From sequence record PQ314493: DNA of 44,679 bases; one strand, given 5' to 3'. Positions 2,853-44,254 of the stretch are shown in pieces (position 1 is the first letter of the stretch; each line of letters opens with the position of its first letter). Origin of the DNA: Escherichia phage vB_EcoS_UALMA_PCEc3. Below the pieces are notes generated by a model. The model saw nothing but the letters and a program-made list of their open reading frames with translations. It searched no databases and was not told the DNA's origin. The position numbers and the translations under genes are program-made.

Positions 2853-2929
2853 GCTCTGCTAGCTCAACAGGACAGCAGCAACGACCTTCTAAGTCGTAGG
2901 TTACTGGTTCGAATCCAGTGCGGAGCGCC
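2853..2929 (+). tRNA. tRNA-Arg (anticodon TCT)
   Basis: 7-bp acceptor stem GCTCTGC/GCGGAGC, U8, D-loop with GG, anticodon stem acgac/gtcgt with loop cTTCTaa, T-arm actgg-TTCGAAT-ccagt, discriminator G and encoded CCA. Confidence 0.8.
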
Positions 2930-2936
2930 AAATTAA

Positions 2937-3038
2937 CGTCGCGTTGCTAATGTTGGCCAAAGGGTGGAGCTTATACCTCCATAAAGCAATCTCCAGATAA
3001 GAGATGTAACGCAGGTTCGATTCCTGCCGCGACGACCA
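2937..3038 (+). tRNA. atypical tRNA-like RNA (~99 nt + CCA; anticodon unresolved, candidates GAT or TAT)
   Basis: perfect 7-bp acceptor pairing cgtcgcg/cgcgacg, canonical T-arm gcagg-TTCGATT-cctgc, encoded CCA; ~25 extra nt relative to a standard tRNA. Confidence 0.35.
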
Positions 3039-3280: not shown

Positions 3281-3305
3281 AGCCCTCGCTTGAGGGCTTT
3301 TTTTC
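3281..3305 (+). terminator. rho-independent terminator
   Basis: hairpin agccctcgcttgagggct followed by T-run. Confidence 0.6.
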
Positions 3306-3315
3306 GTCTGCAATA

Positions 3316-3324
3316 TGGTATAAT
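3316..3324 (+). promoter_or_regulatory. extended -10 promoter (TGgTATAAT) upstream of terminase genes
   Basis: TG at 3316-3317, TATAAT 3319-3324, RBS aaggagg then ATG 3348. Confidence 0.45.
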
Positions 3325-3347
3325 CTGACCTCAACAAAGGAGGATTT

Positions 3348-3854
3348 ATGAGCAAAGCAGCATTAAAGATGGGCGAGGGAAATTTCAAGGCGCTCTACAA
3401 CAAGAAGTATGGCGATATTGCTATGGTGGCAATCAACCGCAAGTACACACCTGAGGAAGTTTTCGATTTCGCAGTGAGATACTTCTCCTGGGCTGAGAGT
3501 GAGGCAATAAAAGCTATTGAGACGGCGGCATATCATGGCGTGGTTAGCGAGAACTTAGTGTACAAGCCGAGAGTGTTCACCCTAACGGGTTTGGCGCTCT
3601 TCATGGGTGTTAACATCAATAGATTCGCTCGCTGGCGTACTGAGGCTGGATACTCTGATGTGATGGAATTTATTGATAACGTAATCTACGAGCAAAAATA
3701 TCAACTTGGCGTTGCAGGTATCATCAACTCTACTATCGTTGGTAAAGAGCTTGGCATTGATAAGCCGCAGGAGATTAAGATTAGCAACAACTCTACAGCT
3801 AACGACGTTGATAGTATGAAGGAAGCGCTGGAGTCAGTGATTAGTAAGCTATAA
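3348..3854 (+). CDS. putative terminase small subunit
   Basis: 168-aa ORF immediately upstream of large terminase; position/size only. Confidence 0.45.
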   Translation: MSKAALKMGEGNFKALYNKKYGDIAMVAINRKYTPEEVFDFAVRYFSWAESEAIKAIETAAYHGVVSENLVYKPRVFTLTGLALFMGVNINRFARWRTEAGYSDVMEFIDNVIYEQKYQLGVAGIINSTIVGKELGIDKPQEIKISNNSTANDVDSMKEALESVISKL

Positions 3855-23874: not shown

Positions 23875-23895
23875 GTTTAGCAATTAGTGCTATTC
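23875..23895 (-). promoter_or_regulatory. palindromic box copy (minus orientation) upstream of Cor-like gene
   Basis: minus-sense gaatagcactaattgctaaac; -10-like TACTAT and leader ccatcgaaacgaaac follow. Confidence 0.55.
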
Positions 23896-24137
23896 AACCA
23901 TCTGTTATATTTATCCCTCTCATTGATTGCCTTTTCAAGTGACTTGAATCTTAAAAGTAGATGCATGCAGTCAACACCCATAGTTAAGGATTCGTCACAG
24001 CTACTAGCACCTGTCAGCCAAAGTGAGAAGTATTGTTGATCAAGGCCGTAGTTCCTGTCTTTATTAACTCTAACGCTAACAACTTTAAATTCTAAACCAG
24101 CCAGCTTAACCTTATCTATAAATTCTGACTTATTCAT
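23877..24137 (-). CDS. hypothetical protein (C-terminus NSTNC encoded by box)
   Basis: track ORF 23877..24182; likely start at ATG 24137 after RBS aaaagggga; TAA stop inside box copy. Confidence 0.4.
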   Translation of the reverse strand: MNKSEFIDKVKLAGLEFKVVSVRVNKDRNYGLDQQYFSLWLTGASSCDESLTMGVDCMHLLLRFKSLEKAINERDKYNRWLNSTNC

Positions 24138-24190
24138 CTTGTTTCCCCTTTTGAGTTTACCTGGAAATAGTACATCACCCATGAGCTTTT

Positions 24191-24213: not shown

Positions 24214-24299
24214 ATACACGTAACCGATGTAACTCTATGTATACAATCTCATCCGCGGAAAATGATATACGCGCTGTTACGCCAATTTACGCATTGGTT

Positions 24300-24530
24300 A
24301 CATTAAAATATCTATATATATCAACCTTTTACTCTTATTATTATTATTATATATATTATTATGTATATCGTGTAACTACTTCTATAGAGTGTTCCGGTTA
24401 TAATTTTAATATCATGTGGATTTATACAGTATATAGCAACCAACATAGCAACGCACCATCCGCAATAAATGATATACACGATATACACGATGGTTACATT
24501 GAGCTATAGCTGGGCTTGGATGCCAAGAAG
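24300..24530. repeat. AT-rich intergenic repeat region A (TTA-repeat tract, GTTACGC-type iterons, AGCTATAGCT palindrome)
   Basis: shares ~40-nt and ~30-nt blocks with region 42660-42885. Confidence 0.5.
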
Positions 24531-24671
24531 CGTAACAGGTGCTAATGTCCACACGTAATTACAATGATTCACGCGTAAGTTGAATCAACGATTGGTAAAA
24601 CCAATTGGACTTGTTACGGTGTCGAATATATAGTTAACCCATAGAAAGCAAGCAACCAGAGAGATATAGAA

Positions 24672-25835: not shown

Positions 25836-25854
25836 ATAGCACGAATCGCTAAAG
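25834..25854 (+). promoter_or_regulatory. palindromic box copy; -10 TATGAT ~25874-25879
   Basis: aaatagcacgaatcgctaaag. Confidence 0.55.
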
Positions 25855-25908
25855 ACAAAATTAAAAGGTGGGGTATGATTACCCCATCAACAACGAACGA
25901 GGTTAAAG

Positions 25909-27030: not shown

Positions 27031-27060
27031 AGAAAAGGCCCCTTTCGGGGCCTTTTTTAT
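27031..27060. terminator. bidirectional rho-independent terminator
   Basis: hairpin aggcccctttcggggcct flanked by A-run and T-run; convergent genes on both sides. Confidence 0.7.
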
Positions 27061-29867
27061 GAAGCTGTATTTACCTGAAGATATGCACCATTAGTTGCAC
27101 CAAACCATGCGTAAGCAGATCCGTAAGTTGTTGGGTTATCATTTAAGATGAAGTCACCCGCTCTAATTACGCACTTTTCTCCATATTTATCAGTTGGCCT
27201 TGCACTAAAACCATAATCAACATATCTAAAACCAACCTTCGTTACGTTATCGTTAAGAGGAAAAATATCCGAGAAGCTAGAAGCCCTAAAGTCATTGTTC
27301 CTGAAAATTCCTCCTGTAAAGTTATCCATATCAAACATTGTGGTTAAACTTGAAGCAACAGTATTCATGAACTTGTTGCCTTCATATGTCGGAGCTACTA
27401 CTTCATAGCCAACTCTTAGCTGAACAAATCCCCCATCAATAATATTGTCCTTGACTATTGGATATTGCCCGCCGATTGCTAAGCCACCAAACCCAGGTGT
27501 AAATTTGCAACTATTATTACTAAATATAGTGCCAACCCACGCCTGATTTGTAAGGTATGGTGCCTTAGTATCTGTCATGGTGTTCCCGGTGATAATCAAT
27601 CCATTCTTGGCCTGAATTCCCTCCTGGTAGCCCTGAATCGCTACGCCGCCACCAATCATAATGTTGCTGGATATAATAATGTTGCTCAACCCCTCATTAA
27701 CACCCCAATCACTTTCTGCATCATTTGTTATCAGTAAGTAGTGAGAAGAAGCCCTGCCAGTAGCGTCTGTAGTTATGATGCTTGTATTCCCTTTGCATAT
27801 AACATTGTTTGCCGCAAAAACCTCAACAAATATACCAGAGCCTTCGTAGTAGTTATCAGTAACCGTTACGTTATTGCCAGCCGGGGTTATCCTTGACTGG
27901 ATAGATATTGGATAATAGAACTTGTTGGCGTGAGCGTAAGACCTTCGGCTTCTCTCGGATATTGCATAATCCTCCGCGAAAGTATGCCATGCCCTTCCTG
28001 ACTGTTTTGTTGTGTTTCCTATAAACTCTGAGTAGTCACAGTTTCTTGTGATTAAGCAGTAGTTAGCGTTGTATCTGAAGCTTGAATTTCTAAGAGATAC
28101 GAATGCATTAGGTAAGCCATTAAGAGCATCGGCATTAACAAAGGCCCTCGAGGCATTAACCTCCATACCCTCGATCACAACTGATGCGCATCCTTCAACC
28201 ATAAAACCAAACCAGTCTTCTCTTGGTTTATGCTCTGTATCCGTTGGTTGGATTGAGTAATCTGAAAAGTCAGTATTCCAGTTGAGTCCGCTAGCTTTAA
28301 ATGTGCAACCTTTAAGCCCGAAAACAACCCTCTCTGGTGATGTGCTTCCAGAGATATCAATATCAACATCATTATTGGCAAAAATGTCAACAGTAAGTCC
28401 ATTGAGGAAGAATGCCGTTTGCCTTAACACTCTGTACTTATCATTGTACTGAACACCATCGGAGAATGAGACTTTCAGTCTTCCAGCGCTAATTCTTACC
28501 TTCCTGTTTGTATTGTGACCAAGGTTTATACATGCCATAACCGAGGCGTTTGATTCATTAACTCCAGACACATCATGACCAGCCCATTCGGTATGGATAT
28601 CATCAACACCTCCCGTAAACCTAACCCAGCAACCATTTTCACCTGGTGATGTCTCACCCGCTCCGCTAAGGAAGTCTGAAAGAGTGGAATATGTACCATC
28701 AAATGGAACCGTTGGGCTAAAAACAGTAATCCCGTTATGTTCGCTCTTACTTACTAATGGACTCCAGTAGAACAGACCGCCACCAGAGTTTGATCCAGAA
28801 ATGTAAGACCTTACATTTGCTAAATTTTTATTCTCATTTGTTTGTTTGATTAGTTCGTAAATTGAATCAACTGAAGATAGTCCTAAATTACTCCTGGCAA
28901 GGCTTTTATCCGCAACATCAGAGAAATTCAATGATTTTTGAAAAGTCTCATTTTTTGAGTAAACATCAAGTAAACCTCTTACTCGCTGGGCGTTAGCGCC
29001 TCCAGCTTCATTTCCGCCAGGCAAGTAGATTGACTCTCTAACATAGTATTTCCTAACACCACCGGAAGTATTGTAACTGATGTGATAACGTCTAAAGCTG
29101 CCATCGATACCGGTGTAGGTTGACACTTGAATATTTCTTGATCCAGTCCCAGTTGCTCCGCCCTCTACAGATATAACAAGCGTAGCATTGCTTGGTACTT
29201 TTAATGCTTCTGGTGCATTTGTGCAAGCAGAGAAAGCAACCCTATAATGACCGCCAACAACAAAATTAAAAGTTTGGAAATCAAGTTCACTTAAAATATT
29301 GCTACCATTACCGATACCCCAACCAGAAAGTGTAACTAGTGTTCCAGCATCACCAGCACTATTAATTGCCTCAATAGTAGCATCTCTCGCTGATGTGGTT
29401 GTATCTCTTGCACTAACGGCAGTAGCTGCGCTCTCTGCGGCAGCAATCTGGCTAGCTAAAGCATCCGCTGCACCTTGCACTGACTGGCTTGCCAATTGCT
29501 CAAAGCGAGGCCAATCAAAAGAATCCTGACCAATGAAATCAATCAGGCTCTGAATGCTAGTTTCCCTACTCTGATAATAACGAAGTGTCTCCGCTACATT
29601 TTGAGCCAAACCCTGAACGCTAATCCCATCATGAGCAAGAATGGCATATCCAGTACCAGCAGGAACAGTTTCGCCATTTGGGTTATATACAGACAATGAA
29701 GTGTCGCTGGTGATTTCAGAGATAGTGTAAATCTGTACTGGCTCTGTTTTGAATACAATTGTAGCACCAACGCGAATAAGTGTTAGTGGCATGGTCCATT
29801 GAGTGCCAACTCCAGTAACCTGACCGTTCGCTGCTAAACTGGCAGTGCCAGTATCATAAATTGCCAT
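27057..29867 (-). CDS. tail fiber / tailspike-like protein with beta-helix-like repeats
   Basis: track ORF 27057..29897; probable ATG 29867 after RBS ggag; Asn/Gly-rich repeats suggest parallel beta-helix (inference). Confidence 0.6.
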   Translation of the reverse strand: MAIYDTGTASLAANGQVTGVGTQWTMPLTLIRVGATIVFKTEPVQIYTISEITSDTSLSVYNPNGETVPAGTGYAILAHDGISVQGLAQNVAETLRYYQSRETSIQSLIDFIGQDSFDWPRFEQLASQSVQGAADALASQIAAAESAATAVSARDTTTSARDATIEAINSAGDAGTLVTLSGWGIGNGSNILSELDFQTFNFVVGGHYRVAFSACTNAPEALKVPSNATLVISVEGGATGTGSRNIQVSTYTGIDGSFRRYHISYNTSGGVRKYYVRESIYLPGGNEAGGANAQRVRGLLDVYSKNETFQKSLNFSDVADKSLARSNLGLSSVDSIYELIKQTNENKNLANVRSYISGSNSGGGLFYWSPLVSKSEHNGITVFSPTVPFDGTYSTLSDFLSGAGETSPGENGCWVRFTGGVDDIHTEWAGHDVSGVNESNASVMACINLGHNTNRKVRISAGRLKVSFSDGVQYNDKYRVLRQTAFFLNGLTVDIFANNDVDIDISGSTSPERVVFGLKGCTFKASGLNWNTDFSDYSIQPTDTEHKPREDWFGFMVEGCASVVIEGMEVNASRAFVNADALNGLPNAFVSLRNSSFRYNANYCLITRNCDYSEFIGNTTKQSGRAWHTFAEDYAISERSRRSYAHANKFYYPISIQSRITPAGNNVTVTDNYYEGSGIFVEVFAANNVICKGNTSIITTDATGRASSHYLLITNDAESDWGVNEGLSNIIISSNIMIGGGVAIQGYQEGIQAKNGLIITGNTMTDTKAPYLTNQAWVGTIFSNNSCKFTPGFGGLAIGGQYPIVKDNIIDGGFVQLRVGYEVVAPTYEGNKFMNTVASSLTTMFDMDNFTGGIFRNNDFRASSFSDIFPLNDNVTKVGFRYVDYGFSARPTDKYGEKCVIRAGDFILNDNPTTYGSAYAWFGATNGAYLQVNTAS

Positions 29868-29888
29868 TGTGTAAAGTCTCCATTTGTA

Positions 29889-29909
29889 AAGTAGCACTAA
29901 TTGCTAAAG
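29889..29909. promoter_or_regulatory. palindromic box copy between primase terminator and tail fiber start
   Basis: aagtagcactaattgctaaag; only ~25 nt from tail fiber ATG in minus sense. Confidence 0.45.
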
Positions 29910-29932
29910 TGGATTGTATCATCTTTCATGTA

Positions 29933-29955
29933 TAAAAAAACCTCCCGAAGGAGGT
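29933..29955 (-). terminator. rho-independent terminator (minus strand) after primase gene
   Basis: minus-sense hairpin aacctccttcgggaggtt followed by T-run. Confidence 0.6.
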
Positions 29956-30878
29956 TAGTCTAGTAATTCGCTTGCTTTGTATATTCGCTTTCTTATGCCT
30001 GACTTGAAAAAATTATCATCATTTGGCATTACCACATCAAGATTGCGATCGTCAGCAACAGCGAGTAAATCAAAATCGTGGCGAGTACAAGCGACGCGTA
30101 ACTTGTAGTTTCTAAGCGCATAAGCAACCATTTCCATGTTGTAGCTGGAGTGGCAAACAAGCACGCAGCGGTTGCCAGTAGCAATGTGAACGCGATAGCC
30201 GTCAATGAGATTATCGACCAGATAAGCGTACTCATCATCTTTAAAGGCGCCAATAATAGAAACAGACTGGCGAGTATAATCTTTTGCAGCATAGCTAACA
30301 TCTCCATCTTCATTGATAAACATTACATTGCACATATCATCTGATATGCCGTCACTATAAGCCATAAAGCACGGTACTGCGTGTATTAGTTCGCCTGATT
30401 TAGTCCTGCCAACATCAAAACCAAATTCGCTATAGATACCCTCGTATATACTGAGCGGTGTTGATTCTACTCTTTCCGTCCTTTCCATTATCTCAAGGCA
30501 TCTTTCGTGGTCAATCTGCGCGCCCATTTTATAAAGCTTAGTTCTTGATGCTTGCTTGTTTGCCTTGTTGACAACCTCTACAGGAATGAGGTTTAACCAC
30601 TCACCTAGAGTGTCAATACATTCACTGAATGACTCCCCTCGCATCTTCTGCAGCCACAAAATTCCATCGCCTGAGCCGCACTGGTTGCAGATAATGCCAC
30701 CATCACCTTCTTCGCTAACCTTGTTGGTCCACCTGGCCCTGTCGTTACCGCCGCAATAAATGCATGGTTGATGCTTTTTGGTCTGGAAAAACCTAGGGTC
30801 TGCTCCGCAAATGTTTATAAGCGCCTTATCCCACATGCCGCGCATTCTTGGTAGAACCTCTTTCTTATCGTAGTGCAT
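29955..30878 (-). CDS. DNA primase (zinc-ribbon + TOPRIM-like, putative)
   Basis: CIYCGG...CNQCGSG zinc-binding motif; acidic DD cluster downstream. Confidence 0.55.
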   Translation of the reverse strand: MHYDKKEVLPRMRGMWDKALINICGADPRFFQTKKHQPCIYCGGNDRARWTNKVSEEGDGGIICNQCGSGDGILWLQKMRGESFSECIDTLGEWLNLIPVEVVNKANKQASRTKLYKMGAQIDHERCLEIMERTERVESTPLSIYEGIYSEFGFDVGRTKSGELIHAVPCFMAYSDGISDDMCNVMFINEDGDVSYAAKDYTRQSVSIIGAFKDDEYAYLVDNLIDGYRVHIATGNRCVLVCHSSYNMEMVAYALRNYKLRVACTRHDFDLLAVADDRNLDVVMPNDDNFFKSGIRKRIYKASELLD

Positions 30879-30936: not shown

Positions 30937-31410
30937 TTACTCTTTAGCTTTTCGTGCTGCTTCGTTAGCCGCCTTAATCTTGCGCCAGGAGCGACACTCT
31001 GGCTTGGTTGCTAGCTCCGCCTCAGTAACCACGCGCAGCATGTGACGCTTTTTGCAGCGCAGGGTTAGAGGCTTTCCGTTGCCATCGAATTGCAGATCTG
31101 GTCGGCAGAATGTAGCGCGAAAACCTTTTCCATTTCGCTTATAGTAGTTGTGCGACAACTGAGCGCCACGCGCAGAAATCATCCCACGCTTAAACCATTC
31201 TTCTACAGCCTGAGGTGTCACCTTTAACTGCTTTGCGATATTTGCCTTTGTGCCGAAGAAATCAAGAACAATCTCTAGCCGCGAGCGTAGCCCGGCTCTT
31301 ACTTCATCTTTTAAAACATAGTAGCCTGAAGGTCGTTTACGTTGCTTTTTGTCTTCGGTGCGGATGGTTCCGTTATTGCCGTTAATGGTTCGCTTGTCAA
31401 CTGCACTCAT
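30937..31410 (-). CDS. HTH DNA-binding protein (putative transcriptional regulator)
   Basis: HTH-like segment NIAKQLKVTPQAVEEWFKRG; basic; first gene of minus-strand operon. Confidence 0.5.
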   Translation of the reverse strand: MSAVDKRTINGNNGTIRTEDKKQRKRPSGYYVLKDEVRAGLRSRLEIVLDFFGTKANIAKQLKVTPQAVEEWFKRGMISARGAQLSHNYYKRNGKGFRATFCRPDLQFDGNGKPLTLRCKKRHMLRVVTEAELATKPECRSWRKIKAANEAARKAKE

Positions 31411-31421
31411 TTCATTACCTC

Positions 31422-31440
31422 AATAGCATTTTTTGTTAAA
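31422..31440 (+). promoter_or_regulatory. degenerate box variant in divergent HTH/helicase intergenic region
   Basis: aatagcattttttgttaaa. Confidence 0.35.
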
Positions 31441-31511
31441 AGTCATTATGATTTGATGGTAGTATTGTACTCAATTAAACGCTACAAGACAATTTTTATA
31501 GGAATTTAGAT

Positions 31512-34153: not shown

Positions 34154-34216
34154 ACTTATCGCAGGGATGCGATATAGTTACTCCATCGAAACGAAACGCA
34201 CAAAGAGAGAAAGAAA

Positions 34217-42462: not shown

Positions 42463-42659
42463 TGATGTTTTTGATTGTTGCGAAAAGTGAAATGAAGTGG
42501 TGAGTGAGTGAATGAAAGATGGATGGACTACCATACAAGTTGATTTTGATTCCCGCTGAGCCATTTCTAAGCTGACACGTAACGCCTGTAGCGCGATGTA
42601 AGCCAATGCCTATCGTTACGCTAGTTACGCGAAGCTACGCCCAGACTTACACTATAAGT

Positions 42660-42885
42660 GCCTAATATATATATATATCTTCTTTCTATTATTATTATTA
42701 TTATTAATATTATTGTATGTAAGTCATGTAACAGGGGTCCTGGCGATATCTATATGTTTTTTCCTATCAGTTATAGCCGAGGCTATAATTTAGGGTATGG
42801 TGGGGGTGTTTTGGGGATGTTTGCCTCGTTACACGCACGACACGCTACTCACATTGAGCTATAGCTGGGCTGGCATGCCATTTCG
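42660..42885. repeat. AT-rich intergenic repeat region B (paralogous to 24300-24530)
   Basis: shared acattgagctatagctgggc block and (tta)n tract; multiple cgtaacg/gttacgc copies nearby. Confidence 0.5.
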
Positions 42886-42979
42886 CGTAACGACCCCCAA
42901 AAGTTACCAAGAATTACACTTGACTACACGTGTAAGTCGGGATATTATGGACTCAACTTAAACGAGAGGAGTGATAGAG

Positions 42980-43459: not shown

Positions 43460-43983
43460 TGTTTGACTTTAACGAGGATAAACTGACAGAAGAGCAGGTA
43501 ATAGAGATAGCCAAGCAAGATGGAATGCCTCCGCTGCGAATTGCAATCAATGCTAACGGGTATCGACAGTCAACGGCGTTTTGGGGCTCGATTGATATCT
43601 CAGAGGTGTATAGTGGTGATGAGCTTGGTGTACTGATTAAAATCATCAGGAAGATAGGAGTTAACGGCAAAGTAGTTGTCGGCATCAGATCTCTATATGA
43701 AGGCGCTCGCAAGTTAAAGCCATTTGCTGGGCGCGATGGAATGATGCTAGTGATCAAGGACAAGCTAATTCCAGAGCTCGATAAGATGAATGTTACCTGT
43801 CTAATTGGAGATAAGGTTTACTTCAACCCCTCCTTGACGGATTTAAGCTGGCAACCAAACTTCAAAACTTGCGAAGGTGAGCATGTTAGTAGACTACCAT
43901 ACCACTTGCGGTACAGAGAGGAAGAGGTGGAGATGGCGATTGAGTTCCACCGGAAAGCTAAACCACTCCTGAACGGTGAATAG
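43459..43983 (+). CDS. short paralogue of the P-loop NTPase-like protein (lacks NTPase core)
   Basis: MFDFNEDKL...INANGYRQS N-terminus and VVGIRSLYE...TCLIGDKVY C-terminal block shared with 39463..41046. Confidence 0.55.
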   Translation: MFDFNEDKLTEEQVIEIAKQDGMPPLRIAINANGYRQSTAFWGSIDISEVYSGDELGVLIKIIRKIGVNGKVVVGIRSLYEGARKLKPFAGRDGMMLVIKDKLIPELDKMNVTCLIGDKVYFNPSLTDLSWQPNFKTCEGEHVSRLPYHLRYREEEVEMAIEFHRKAKPLLNGE

Positions 43984-43998
43984 CACGGATTGCTAAAC
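43978..43998 (+). promoter_or_regulatory. palindromic box copy; -10 TATAAT 44018-44023
   Basis: gaatagcacggattgctaaac; contains TAG stop of short paralogue. Confidence 0.6.
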
Positions 43999-44047
43999 AA
44001 TGGATCGGGTAGTCAGCTATAATTACCACATCGACAACAAAGAGGAA

Positions 44048-44254
44048 ATGAAGATGAAAACTATGATTATCGAAGATTTCTCAGGTGACATCACTGAGGT
44101 GTCTGCTTCAGTATATTACGACGGCATCGTGAGCATTGACATTGACACGGATAACTTAGGCGATGAAATTACTATGTCTCACTATACACCAGAGCAAGCG
44201 CGCAAACTGGCGGCGGCATTAATCATGGCGGCGGAAGAGTCAGAGAAGCAATGA
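44048..44254 (+). CDS. hypothetical protein
   Basis: track ORF 44000..44254; likely ATG 44048 after cassette leader and RBS agaggaa. Confidence 0.4.
   Translation: MKMKTMIIEDFSGDITEVSASVYYDGIVSIDIDTDNLGDEITMSHYTPEQARKLAAALIMAAEESEKQ

What the first reader, a model, noticed from the sequence alone, without database searches (positions are those of the whole stretch)
27057..29909. Minus-strand tail fiber/tailspike with beta-helix-like repeats and a box copy inside its 5' leader
The ~936-aa protein is encoded on the opposite strand from the other tail genes, between the SSB and primase genes, flanked by terminators on both sides. Its C-terminal two-thirds is rich in Asn/Gly/Thr short repeats suggestive of a parallel beta-helix (depolymerase-like) fold. 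Unlike other copies, the box here lies only ~25 nt from the ATG, so it cannot act as the usual upstream promoter element and may act as an operator or RNA element instead.
Basis: partly seen in the sequence, partly recalled or inferred. Interest (0 to 1): 0.4.

Follow-up and report, generated by a model that had tools for sequence, protein, structure and literature searches.

The report
Tailspike-type side fibre with operator-like box
This is the ordinary, already annotated side tail fibre gene of a T1/Rtp-like phage, ending in a sugar-binding beta-helix "tailspike"; the one fresh point is that a copy of the phage's promoter box sits upside-down on the gene's own start of transcription, where it probably works as an off-switch.

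Summary
The window is the whole genome of 'Pseudomonas phage PsgS01F', an Rtp-like Drexlerviridae phage 94% identical to an E. coli phage. The 936-aa minus-strand ORF (29867..27057) is real and is the family's lateral tail fibre. It has a conserved Stf-like N-terminal anchor, a coiled coil, and an exchangeable C-terminal receptor module. A confident AlphaFold model (pLDDT 83) shows that module as a right-handed parallel beta-helix, and it matches only tailspikes, depolymerases and related glycosidases. Gene position, strand and flanking terminators are standard for the family, and Rtp gp50 is already annotated 'beta-helix fold'.

The box is the known T1-like 21-nt repeat aaATAGCACnnnTTGnTAAAA. 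Normally it lies exactly 20 nt upstream of a TAnnnT -10 element. The copy at 29888-29908 is inverted relative to the fibre gene and has no -10 element in its forward sense. It begins 4 nt after a conserved extended -10 promoter (TGaTACAAT, 29921-29913), so it covers about -2 to +19.

The extended -10 and the inverted box are the only strongly conserved blocks in this leader across Rtpvirus, Nouzillyvirus, Tunavirus and Warwickvirus. Four other genera keep the promoter but lack the box.

An operator is the best reading, but it is untested. An RNA element is poorly supported. Interest is low to moderate.

The parts
27057..29867 (-). Lateral (side) tail fibre / tailspike gene, 936 aa plus stop
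   Evidence: Translation; GenBank 'tail fiber protein'; full-length match to phrog_24092; 95% identical to the CEB_EC3a tail fibre
29538..29867 (-). aa 1-110: conserved N-terminal virion-anchor domain (Stf-like)
   Evidence: tblastn finds it in 900 phage records, including lambdoid side tail fibres at 37-41% identity. It aligns to the N-termini of the Klebsiella phage depolymerases 7VYV, 7VZ3 and 7LZJ with E 2.5e-32. It is the only part shared by all Drexlerviridae fibres
29313..29537 (-). aa 111-185: long alpha-helical (coiled-coil-like) stalk
   Evidence: Helices 119-181 in the full-length model, at low confidence as a monomer. This stretch still aligns to the 7VYV family
28878..29312 (-). 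aa 186-330: small beta-sandwich domain plus linker
   Evidence: The AF2 full-length model has strands at 207-281 with pLDDT about 70-84. This part varies between homologues
28596..28877 (-). aa 331-424: N-terminal cap / 'GGGxFYW' domain of the receptor module
   Evidence: AF2 model md78f8080df9b residues 1-95, pLDDT 73-88. phrog_32929, phrog_27346 and phrog_14824 match aa 314-470
27363..28595 (-). aa 425-835: right-handed parallel beta-helix (about 12-13 rungs), receptor-binding and probably glycan-cleaving domain
   Evidence: AF2 mean pLDDT 83, pTM 0.83, with runs of three short strands per rung. Foldseek against PDB gives 98 hits at E<=1e-3, and all of the top 50 are beta-helix proteins. BFVD gives 240 hits
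27060..27362 (-). aa 836-936: C-terminal beta domain
   Evidence: AF2 model residues 507-607, pLDDT 67-88
29878..29881 (-). Shine-Dalgarno GGAG, 10 nt before the ATG
   Evidence: Sequence; a GGAG/AGGAG lies in this position in the relatives aligned and in most loci
29888..29908 (+). Box copy AAAGTAGCACTAATTGCTAAA (palindromic core 29892-29906), inverted relative to the fibre gene; predicted to span about -2 to +19 of the fibre promoter
   Evidence: There is no TAnnnT 20 nt downstream in its forward sense, here or in Rtp or T1. The columns TTAGCAA and GTGCTA are invariant in 10 relatives from 5 lineages
29913..29921 (-). Predicted extended -10 sigma-70 promoter TGaTACAAT of the fibre gene; predicted start at about 29906/29905
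   Evidence: Sequence. TG and TA...T are invariant columns in alignment A3. The motif is present in 24 of 25 IMG/VR fibre loci. It is kept in three of the four box-less genera; Tlsvirus Sazh has CATAAT without the TG. The start site is not mapped
29932..29956 (-). Intrinsic terminator ending the regulator-primase unit
   Evidence: -12.1 kcal/mol, z -4.4, followed by seven U
27031..27056 (.). Bidirectional intrinsic terminator shared by the SSB (+) and fibre (-) genes
   Evidence: -18.3 kcal/mol on the minus strand and -19.6 on the plus strand, with U-runs on both
30937..31410 (-). Candidate box-binding protein: 157-aa 'transcriptional regulator' (T1 gp23 / Rtp52 family)
   Evidence: phrog_2856. 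Weak Cro-type helix-turn-helix at aa 48-72, below the Pfam cut-off. The Rtp52 note reads 'strong prediction of HTH'. Its distribution (824 records) coincides with box-bearing 41-53 kb genomes. Binding is not shown

Best explanation
The ORF encodes the phage's lateral (side) tail fibre, built as a tailspike. A family-conserved N-terminal domain, related to lambda Stf and to the Klebsiella phage depolymerases DpK2 and Depo32, anchors it to the tail. A helical stalk follows. The C-terminal 600 residues form a right-handed parallel beta-helix module that binds, and probably cleaves or modifies, a surface polysaccharide of an enterobacterial host. That module is a mobile cassette also found on tailspikes with P22-type and CBA120-type N-termini.

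The gene is its own monocistronic unit. It runs from the primase terminator, through an extended -10 sigma-70 promoter (TGaTACAAT), a 39-nt leader and the gene, to a bidirectional terminator.

The box copy is not a promoter element here. It is inverted and covers the predicted start site (about -2 to +19). Elsewhere in the genome the same box is centred near -42 of promoters that have no -35 hexamer, which is the position of a class II activator site.

The most likely mechanism is therefore as follows. One box-binding factor, probably the Cro-like HTH regulator encoded two genes upstream, switches on the box promoters. The same factor blocks or traps RNA polymerase at the fibre promoter. This limits or times synthesis of a protein needed in only a few copies per virion.

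Shown: the gene, its domains, its fold, the geometry, and the conservation of the promoter and box. Inferred: the start site, the binding protein and the sign of regulation.
For: Identity and fold:
- The protein matches phrog_24092 over its full length and is annotated as a tail fibre.
- The N-terminal 170 aa align to 7VYV, 7VZ3 and 7LZJ with E about 1e-32. They are 37-41% identical to lambdoid side tail fibres.
- The AF2 model of aa 330-936 has pLDDT 83 and pTM 0.83. Foldseek gives 98 PDB and 240 BFVD hits at E<=1e-3. All of the top 50 PDB hits, and the named hits among the top BFVD ones, are beta-helix tailspikes, depolymerases or glycosidases.
- The C-terminal module is 61-65% identical to tailspikes that carry Head_binding or Tail_spike_N N-termini.

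Transcription unit:
- Strong terminators lie on both sides.
- TGnTAnAAT is conserved directly after the terminator in all but one (Tlsvirus Sazh) of the nine Drexlerviridae lineages sampled.

Box:
- 63 of 76 boxes in four genomes have TAnnnT at 20 +/- 1 nt. The fibre copies in the window, Rtp and T1 do not.
- The fibre copy is inverted and starts 4-5 nt after the -10 hexamer (12 nt in Warwickvirus).
- In alignment A3 the only strongly conserved blocks between the terminator and the ribosome-binding site/ATG are the extended -10 and the box halves.
- Warwickvirus carries the other box subtype (TTT type), also inverted, which ties the element to the promoter-box recognition system.
- 25 of 27 exact matches to the '-10 plus inverted box' pattern in IMG/VR precede a fibre gene.
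- The regulator and the box share the same taxonomic range.
Against: - No 5' end, footprint or expression data exist for any of these phages (searches found none).
- The -35 region of the proposed promoter is poor (GTTTTT). The generic promoter scan did not list this promoter.
- Four genera (Rogunavirus, Webervirus, Hanrivervirus, Tlsvirus) do without the box, so it is dispensable.
- The regulator's HTH match is below the Pfam threshold, and nothing links it physically to the box.
- The box-binding factor could instead be a host protein or RNA polymerase itself.
- Repressing a structural gene with the same factor that activates other late genes is not obviously logical.
- This protein has no Pfam beta-helix hit, and no catalytic residues were identified.
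Confidence: 0.55

Rival explanations
1. The box acts at the RNA level. Transcribed from about +1, it forms a 5'-terminal stem-loop (UAGCA-AUUAG-UGCUA) that stabilises the fibre mRNA or modulates its translation.
For: The palindrome would sit at the very 5' end of the predicted transcript and can form a 5-bp hairpin.
Against: - The hairpin is weak: -3.7 kcal/mol, z -1.35, with 16 of 200 shuffles folding as well.
- It does not reach the ribosome-binding site.
- No Rfam family matches.
- The one natural stem variant (TATCA in the vB_EcoS-12397 group) is uncompensated.
- The loop, the flanks and both box subtypes are the same as in the DNA promoter boxes, which an independent RNA hairpin would not need.
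Confidence: 0.1
2. The box is a normal forward promoter element on the + strand. It drives a divergent or antisense transcript into the primase terminator and the 3' end of the primase gene.
For: The copy is in the + orientation with only one mismatch to the consensus. TATAAA lies 22 nt downstream, inside the A-run of the terminator.
Against: - The spacing in 63 real cases is 20 +/- 1 nt, with T at the last position of the hexamer. At 20 nt the sequence is TGTATA here, GGCATA in Rtp and TACCTG in T1, so no -10 is conserved.
- There is no + strand gene downstream.
- The conserved leader CATCGAAACGA of real box promoters is absent.
Confidence: 0.05
3. The copy has no function of its own. It is a relic of module shuffling, or a recombination joint at the highly mosaic fibre locus.
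For: The fibre locus is the most mosaic part of these genomes. The box is missing in four genera that keep the promoter.
Against: - The mosaic joint lies inside the gene, after aa 110-330, and not upstream of it.
- The box halves are invariant while the neighbouring leader bases vary across five lineages.
- The position relative to the -10 hexamer is kept.
- A second subtype sits at the equivalent place in Warwickvirus.
Confidence: 0.15
4. The bound factor acts positively from the downstream site. Alternatively it serves mainly as a roadblock ('stoperator') that stops read-through from the regulator-primase unit, and does not control the fibre promoter itself.
For: The authors of the TLS paper proposed stoperator-like or enhancer roles for the repeat family. 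The box lies just downstream of a terminator, where read-through RNA polymerase would arrive.
Against: Activation from +8 is rare among bacterial regulators (general knowledge). A roadblock placed after an already strong terminator adds little. In either case the site still overlaps the fibre promoter's own start.
Confidence: 0.12

Closest known systems
Drexlerviridae lateral tail fibre (T1 gp26 / FibA, Rtp gp50, BASEL 'lateral tail fiber')
   Same: It has the same N-terminal domain, the same locus between the recombination/SSB genes and the primase gene, the same opposite strand and a variable C-terminus. Rtp gp50 is already annotated 'putative tail fiber with beta-helix fold'.
   Different: The C-terminal receptor module is a different allele from those of Rtp and T1. 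It is shared at 80-95% identity only with CEB_EC3a, ECH1/ACG-M12 and some metagenomic phages.
Klebsiella phage depolymerases DpK2 (PDB 7LZJ) and Depo32 (7VYV/7VZ3)
   Same: The N-terminal 170 aa are homologous (E about 1e-32). The overall plan is the same: anchor, stalk, beta-helix. They are the top fold matches for the C-terminal model.
   Different: The beta-helix domains share only about 12% identity. Their substrate is K2 capsule, whereas the substrate here is unknown. No enzymatic activity has been tested.
P22 / HK620 / CBA120-type tailspikes
   Same: They share the right-handed parallel beta-helix receptor domain. The very same C-terminal module (61-65% identity) is found fused to P22 Head_binding or TSP1 N-terminal domains in Salmonella prophages and in Citrobacter phage K1M.
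   Different: Attachment is through an Stf-type N-terminus on a siphovirus tail, and not through a podovirus head-binding domain.
21-nt direct repeat of T1-like phages, aaATAGCACnnnTTGnTAAAA (TLS paper, PMC11447400)
   Same: The sequence element is the same.
   Different: The published repeats lie 'in the direction of transcription', about 76 nt upstream of start codons. This copy is inverted, lies 23 nt from the ATG, and follows a -10 element instead of preceding one. TLS itself lists no such copy, and Tlsvirus Sazh lacks it.
Dual activator/repressor sites of phage regulators: lambda cI at OR (activates PRM from -42, represses PR) and phi29 p4 (activates A3, traps RNA polymerase at A2c). Recalled from general knowledge, not tested here.
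   Same: One DNA site type is used near -42 in activated promoters and over the core or start region of a repressed one.
   Different: There is no evidence here for the protein, for cooperativity or for the sign of regulation. The regulator is not detectably related to cI or p4 beyond a Cro-like HTH.

Membership tests
Drexlerviridae lateral tail fibre (T1 gp26 / Rtp gp50 family) | Conserved N-terminal anchor domain of about 110-170 aa | tested here: met
   Eight further tail-fibre PHROG families (phrog_5481, 24159, 16641 and others) match only the N-terminal part, starting at aa 1-26 and ending between aa 164 and 370. 900 phage records carry the domain. 565 homologues were found, most of which share only the first 33-40% of the protein.
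Drexlerviridae lateral tail fibre (T1 gp26 / Rtp gp50 family) | Locus between the recombination/SSB genes and the primase gene, on the strand opposite to the tail morphogenesis genes | tested here: met
   The layout is the same in Rtp, T1 and AHP42 and in the BASEL phages.
Drexlerviridae lateral tail fibre (T1 gp26 / Rtp gp50 family) | Presence in the virion as a side fibre | not testable with these tools
   This needs proteomics or electron microscopy of this phage.
Right-handed parallel beta-helix tailspike / depolymerase | Beta-helix fold of the receptor domain | tested here: met
   AF2 pLDDT 83, pTM 0.83. Foldseek against PDB and BFVD.
Right-handed parallel beta-helix tailspike / depolymerase | Sequence match to Pfam Beta_helix (PF13229) or Pect-lyase_RHGA_epim (PF12708) | tested here: not met
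   The protein itself has no Pfam hit at E<=1. Only some alignment partners match: 2 of 29 to Beta_helix and 4 of 29 to PF12708. Homologues carry a precomputed PF27114 label that is not in the local library.
Right-handed parallel beta-helix tailspike / depolymerase | Homotrimer with polysaccharide-cleaving activity (halo, catalytic acidic residues) | not testable with these tools
   No multimer modelling or assay was available, and catalytic residues were not assigned.
Box-dependent promoter of T1-like phages (box, 20 nt, TAnnnT, CATCGAAACGA leader) | Box in the direction of the downstream gene | tested here: not met
   The copy is on the + strand and the gene is on the - strand.
Box-dependent promoter of T1-like phages (box, 20 nt, TAnnnT, CATCGAAACGA leader) | TAnnnT hexamer 20 +/- 1 nt after the box | tested here: not met
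   At that position the sequence is TGTATA here, GGCATA in Rtp and TACCTG in T1. By contrast, 63 of 76 other boxes comply.
Extended -10 sigma-70 promoter | TGn immediately upstream of a TAnnnT hexamer, conserved in relatives | tested here: met
   TGaTACAAT at 29921-29913. TG, TA and T are invariant columns. The motif is present in 24 of 25 IMG/VR loci and in three of the four box-less genera.
Extended -10 sigma-70 promoter | Mapped transcription start 6-8 nt downstream of the hexamer | not testable with these tools
   No transcript data were found.
Operator (repressor site overlapping the core promoter or start site) | Site located between about -10 and +20 of the regulated promoter | tested here: met
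   The box spans about -2 to +19 relative to the predicted start at 29906. This holds only if the predicted promoter is correct.
Operator (repressor site overlapping the core promoter or start site) | Sequence-specific protein binding and a negative effect on transcription | not testable with these tools
   The candidate regulator was identified only by annotation, a weak HTH match and co-distribution.
Sigma-54 promoter (TGGCAC-N5-TTGC) | GG and GC dinucleotides separated by 10 nt | tested here: not met
   The box reads TAGCAC-N3-TTGC, so the spacing is 2 nt too short and GG is replaced by AG (sequence).

The most novel reading that the evidence does not exclude
The inverted box on the fibre promoter is the repressing half of a family-wide circuit run by one master regulator, the T1 gp23 / Rtp52-type Cro-like protein. 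From -42, this protein activates the roughly 16 box promoters that lack a -35 hexamer. At +8 it shuts or traps RNA polymerase at the fibre promoter. Fibre synthesis is then set by the ratio of regulator to the growing number of box copies on replicating genomes, which would act as a titration timer for the host-range determinant.
Probability: 0.25. Interest if true: 0.55.

Novelty: new member of a known kind. Interest (0 to 1): 0.3.

Why it matters
The gene is the host-range cassette of a widespread phage family that is used in therapy and that contaminates laboratories. Knowing that the C-terminal beta-helix module is swapped with P22-type and CBA120-type tailspikes helps to predict its specificity, which is probably an enterobacterial O-antigen or capsule.

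How T1-like phages control transcription is still unsolved. The box repeat is published only as a repeat of unknown function, and one paper doubted that the fibre gene is transcribed at all because a terminator precedes it (PMC7718038). The conserved extended -10 promoter answers that doubt. The inverted box on its start site gives a simple, testable handle on what the box-binding factor is and what it does.

As a finding it remains incremental. The gene itself is ordinary and already annotated.

Tried and rejected
1. Full-length AF2 model. Its mean pLDDT was only 58.6, and its Foldseek hits pointed to beta-helices only weakly (E 6.5e-4, TM 0.2-0.4). It was replaced by a model of the C-terminal 607 aa built on a more diverse alignment.

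2. Pfam on the protein gave no hit. A profile search of PDB recognised only the N-terminus.

3. Forward-promoter or antisense reading of the box. Rejected on spacing and on the lack of a conserved -10.

4. Sigma-54-like reading of the box (TAGCAC..TTGC). Rejected because the spacing is 2 nt short and the GG is absent.

5. I first thought that the regulator gene's own leader had the same '-10, 6 nt, inverted box' spacing as the fibre gene. However, the CATAAT there is CAGAAT in Rtp. The conserved promoter TTGTCT-17-TACAAT puts that box at about +17 to +35, and the box also serves the divergent helicase promoter. It is therefore not independent support.

6. Apparent box copies before the central tail fibre (gpJ) gene in AHP42. 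In the window the equivalent sequence is the start of the coding sequence (ATGGCACAAATG), so this is a false positive.

7. An inverted repeat around the fibre -10, like that seen in box promoters. It is present in some Rtp-like and T1-like relatives but is not consistent.

8. RNA hairpin and Rfam. The hairpin is weak and there is no Rfam match.

9. Literature searches for the box sequence, for Drexlerviridae transcriptomes and for this phage's name found nothing on the inverted copy. The Rtp genome paper is not held.
Full report
**Origin of the window**

The window is 100% identical over the tested 5 kb to GenBank PP134917.1, 'Pseudomonas phage PsgS01F'. That record is 44,679 bp, the same length as the window. 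The window is a rotated reverse complement of it (record position = 53007 minus window position). The tested region is 94% identical to Escherichia phage vB_EcoS_CEB_EC3a and 82-92% identical, over the parts that align, to Rtp, ACG-M12 and other Rtp-like Drexlerviridae.

**The observation**

The minus-strand ORF from ATG 29867 to the stop at 27057 encodes 936 aa. It is the annotated 'tail fiber protein'. The mechanically longest ORF starts at a GTG inside the box, but every homologue starts MAIY/MALY at the ATG.

The gene lies between the SSB gene (+) and the primase gene (-), opposite to the tail genes. A strong terminator lies upstream: 29956-29932, -12.1 kcal/mol, followed by seven U. A bidirectional terminator lies downstream: 27031-27056, -18 to -20 kcal/mol.

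The C-terminal two-thirds is Asn-rich (9.1% against 5.2%) and Gly-rich, but Thr is not enriched. There are no literal repeats.

The box AAAGTAGCACTAATTGCTAAA is at 29888-29908, and its 18-mer core (29891-29908) ends 23 nt from the ATG. Its palindromic core is over-represented about 11-fold in the window. The observation therefore stands.

**The protein**

PHROGs place the whole protein in a tail fibre family, and the first 110-170 aa in many others.

The N-terminus aligns to the Klebsiella phage depolymerases 7VYV, 7VZ3 and 7LZJ with E about 1e-32. It occurs in 900 phage records, including lambdoid side tail fibres at 37-41% identity.

Of 565 homologues, most share only the first third of the protein. 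This is what the BASEL paper describes for the Drexlerviridae lateral tail fibre locus, which lies between the recombination genes and the primase/helicase genes (PMC8594841).

The C-terminal 517 aa are 61-65% identical to tailspikes whose N-termini are P22 Head_binding or TSP1-type domains. These come from Salmonella prophages and from Citrobacter phage K1M. The receptor module is therefore a cassette exchanged between siphoviruses and phages with other tail types.

A full-length AF2 model was poor, with pLDDT 58.6. A model of aa 330-936 built on a more diverse alignment was good, with pLDDT 83 and pTM 0.83. It shows about 12 rungs of three short strands.

Foldseek gave 98 PDB hits and 240 BFVD hits at E<=1e-3. 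All of the top 50 PDB hits are right-handed beta-helix proteins: DpK2, Depo32, Fri1 gp49, K2-2 TSP, Det7, CBA120 TSP2, HK620 and GH110 enzymes.

The protein itself has no Pfam hit. Rtp gp50 is already annotated 'beta-helix fold'. The tailspike reading is therefore right, and it is not new. Enzymatic activity is untested.

**The box in general**

The box is the 21-nt repeat aaATAGCACnnnTTGnTAAAA reported for TLS, T1, Rtp and Rogue1. That report describes it as lying in the direction of transcription, about 76 nt before start codons, with unknown function (PMC11447400).

In the window, Rtp, T1 and AHP42, 63 of 76 boxes are followed at exactly 20 +/- 1 nt by TAnnnT. In the window, 16 of 19 boxes comply. 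A conserved leader, CATCGAAACGA, then follows.

With a start 7 nt after the hexamer, the dyad centre of the box falls at -42, and no -35 hexamer is present. This is the position typical of class II activator sites. That is an inference from general knowledge of promoter architecture.

The box, and the 157-aa Cro-like 'transcriptional regulator' (30937-31410), are both confined to 41-53 kb Drexlerviridae-type genomes.

**The fibre copy of the box**

The fibre copy is one of the exceptions. In its forward (+) sense the hexamer position reads TGTATA. In Rtp it reads GGCATA and in T1 TACCTG.

Read in the sense of the fibre gene, the region has the following order:
- the primase terminator and its T-run;
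- about 10 nt in this phage (10-11 nt in the Rtp-like group, up to about 23 nt in Tunavirus);
- TGaTACAAT, an extended -10 element at 29921-29913;
- 4 nt;
- TTTAGCAATTAGTGCTACTTT, the inverted box;
- 6 nt;
- GGAG;
- 10 nt;
- ATG.

The same order is found in Rtpvirus and other Braunvirinae, Nouzillyvirus, Tunavirus (including T1), LF82-40 and Warwickvirus. Warwickvirus carries the other box subtype, 12 nt after the hexamer. Rogunavirus, Webervirus and Hanrivervirus keep the extended -10 but lack the box; Tlsvirus Sazh also lacks the box and has CATAAT without the TG.

In an alignment of ten relatives, the invariant columns between the terminator and the ribosome-binding site are TG, TA...T and the two box halves TTAGCAA and GTGCTA, plus a single T in the spacer upstream of the extended -10.

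An exact-pattern scan of IMG/VR found the '-10 plus inverted box' arrangement in 25 contigs. Of the 27 matches, 25 lie directly before a fibre gene.

With the start predicted at 29906/29905, the box spans about -2 to +19.

**Mechanism**

The best reading has two parts. First, the fibre gene has its own extended -10 sigma-70 promoter. This answers the doubt raised for phage SU57 that the terminator might prevent the gene's transcription (PMC7718038). Second, the box here is an operator. Any protein bound to it would collide with, or trap, RNA polymerase.

The same factor would then activate from -42 at other promoters, as lambda cI and phi29 p4 do. That analogy is recalled from general knowledge and was not tested.

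The Cro-like regulator two genes upstream is the obvious candidate, but this rests on annotation and co-distribution alone.

**Rivals**

- A 5' RNA hairpin is weak (-3.7 kcal/mol, z -1.35) and has no Rfam match.
- A forward or antisense promoter has no conserved -10.
- A functionless relic is argued against by the island of conservation in alignment A3.
- A downstream activator or a roadblock cannot be excluded.

**Verdict**

This is an ordinary, already annotated lateral tail fibre of tailspike type in the family-typical position. One modestly new regulatory detail is worth a simple experiment. Novelty: a new member of known kinds. Interest: about 0.3.

Noticed in passing
window box promoters, e.g. 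1153-1215, 25836-25900, 41120-41060(-); also Rtp (L015), T1 (L016), AHP42 (L017): In 63 box promoters, the stretch made of the spacer, the -10 hexamer and the next 10 nt folds much better than shuffled sequence (mean z -2.35; 52% have z < -2). The typical structure is a 6-9 bp stem with the -10 hexamer in the loop, or a GC hairpin with a tetraloop inside the spacer. Stem sequences differ between promoters, for example GGGGTA/TACCCC, GGCCA/TGGCC and GGGCAT/ATGCCC. The sense strand folds better than the antisense strand (-8.65 against -6.99 kcal/mol). There is no explanation yet.
   Followed up: partly
window, downstream of box promoters (e.g. 34180-34200, 23845-23825(-)): A conserved leader motif, (C/T)CATCGAAACGA(A/G)A, starts about 7 nt after the -10 hexamer in most box promoters of all four genomes examined. 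It is absent from the fibre leader.
   Followed up: no
whole window: The record names Pseudomonas syringae pv. garcae as the host. However, the genome is 94% identical to an E. coli Rtpvirus, and its tailspike module is shared with Salmonella, Citrobacter and E. coli phages and prophages, so the host attribution looks doubtful. About 20 'Campylobacter phage' records in the same searches are also T1-like.
   Followed up: partly
window 31411-31511: The divergent regulator/helicase intergenic region holds one TTT-type box (31423-31440). It serves the helicase promoter in the forward sense. It also lies at about +17 to +35 of the regulator's own TTGTCT-17-TACAAT promoter, which could allow autoregulation. 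The same layout is found in Rtp, T1 and AHP42.
   Followed up: partly
window 3283-3350: The small terminase gene, like the fibre gene, follows the order terminator, extended -10 promoter (TGgTATAAT, 3317-3325), ribosome-binding site, with no box. In T1 the equivalent TGgTAAAAT overlaps a forward box.
   Followed up: no
window 24280-24560 and 42640-42915: Two related regions of about 280 nt lie 18.36 kb apart. Each has an AT-rich block (ATATATATATC followed by TTA repeats). About 125 nt later each has a conserved CACATTGAGCTATAGCTGGGCT..ATGCCA..GCGTAAC block. Both sit near points where transcription diverges. They may be origins or regulatory regions.
   Followed up: no
window 2853-2927 and 2937-3035: Two adjacent tRNA genes are detected by Rfam. 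The second is unusually long, at 99 nt.
   Followed up: no
window 23877-24182(-) and 44000-44254(+): The annotated or longest ORF starts lie inside box promoters (the box at 24210-24193 and the box at 43980-43997). The true start codons are probably the ATGs about 55-65 nt after the boxes.
   Followed up: no
T1-like fibre leaders (L025, L028, L029, L031, L038, L039): In many Tunavirus genomes a half-box, ATAGCAC, also lies immediately upstream of the fibre extended -10 element (..ATAGCACAATGATAAAAT..). It is variable and is absent from T1 itself.
   Followed up: no
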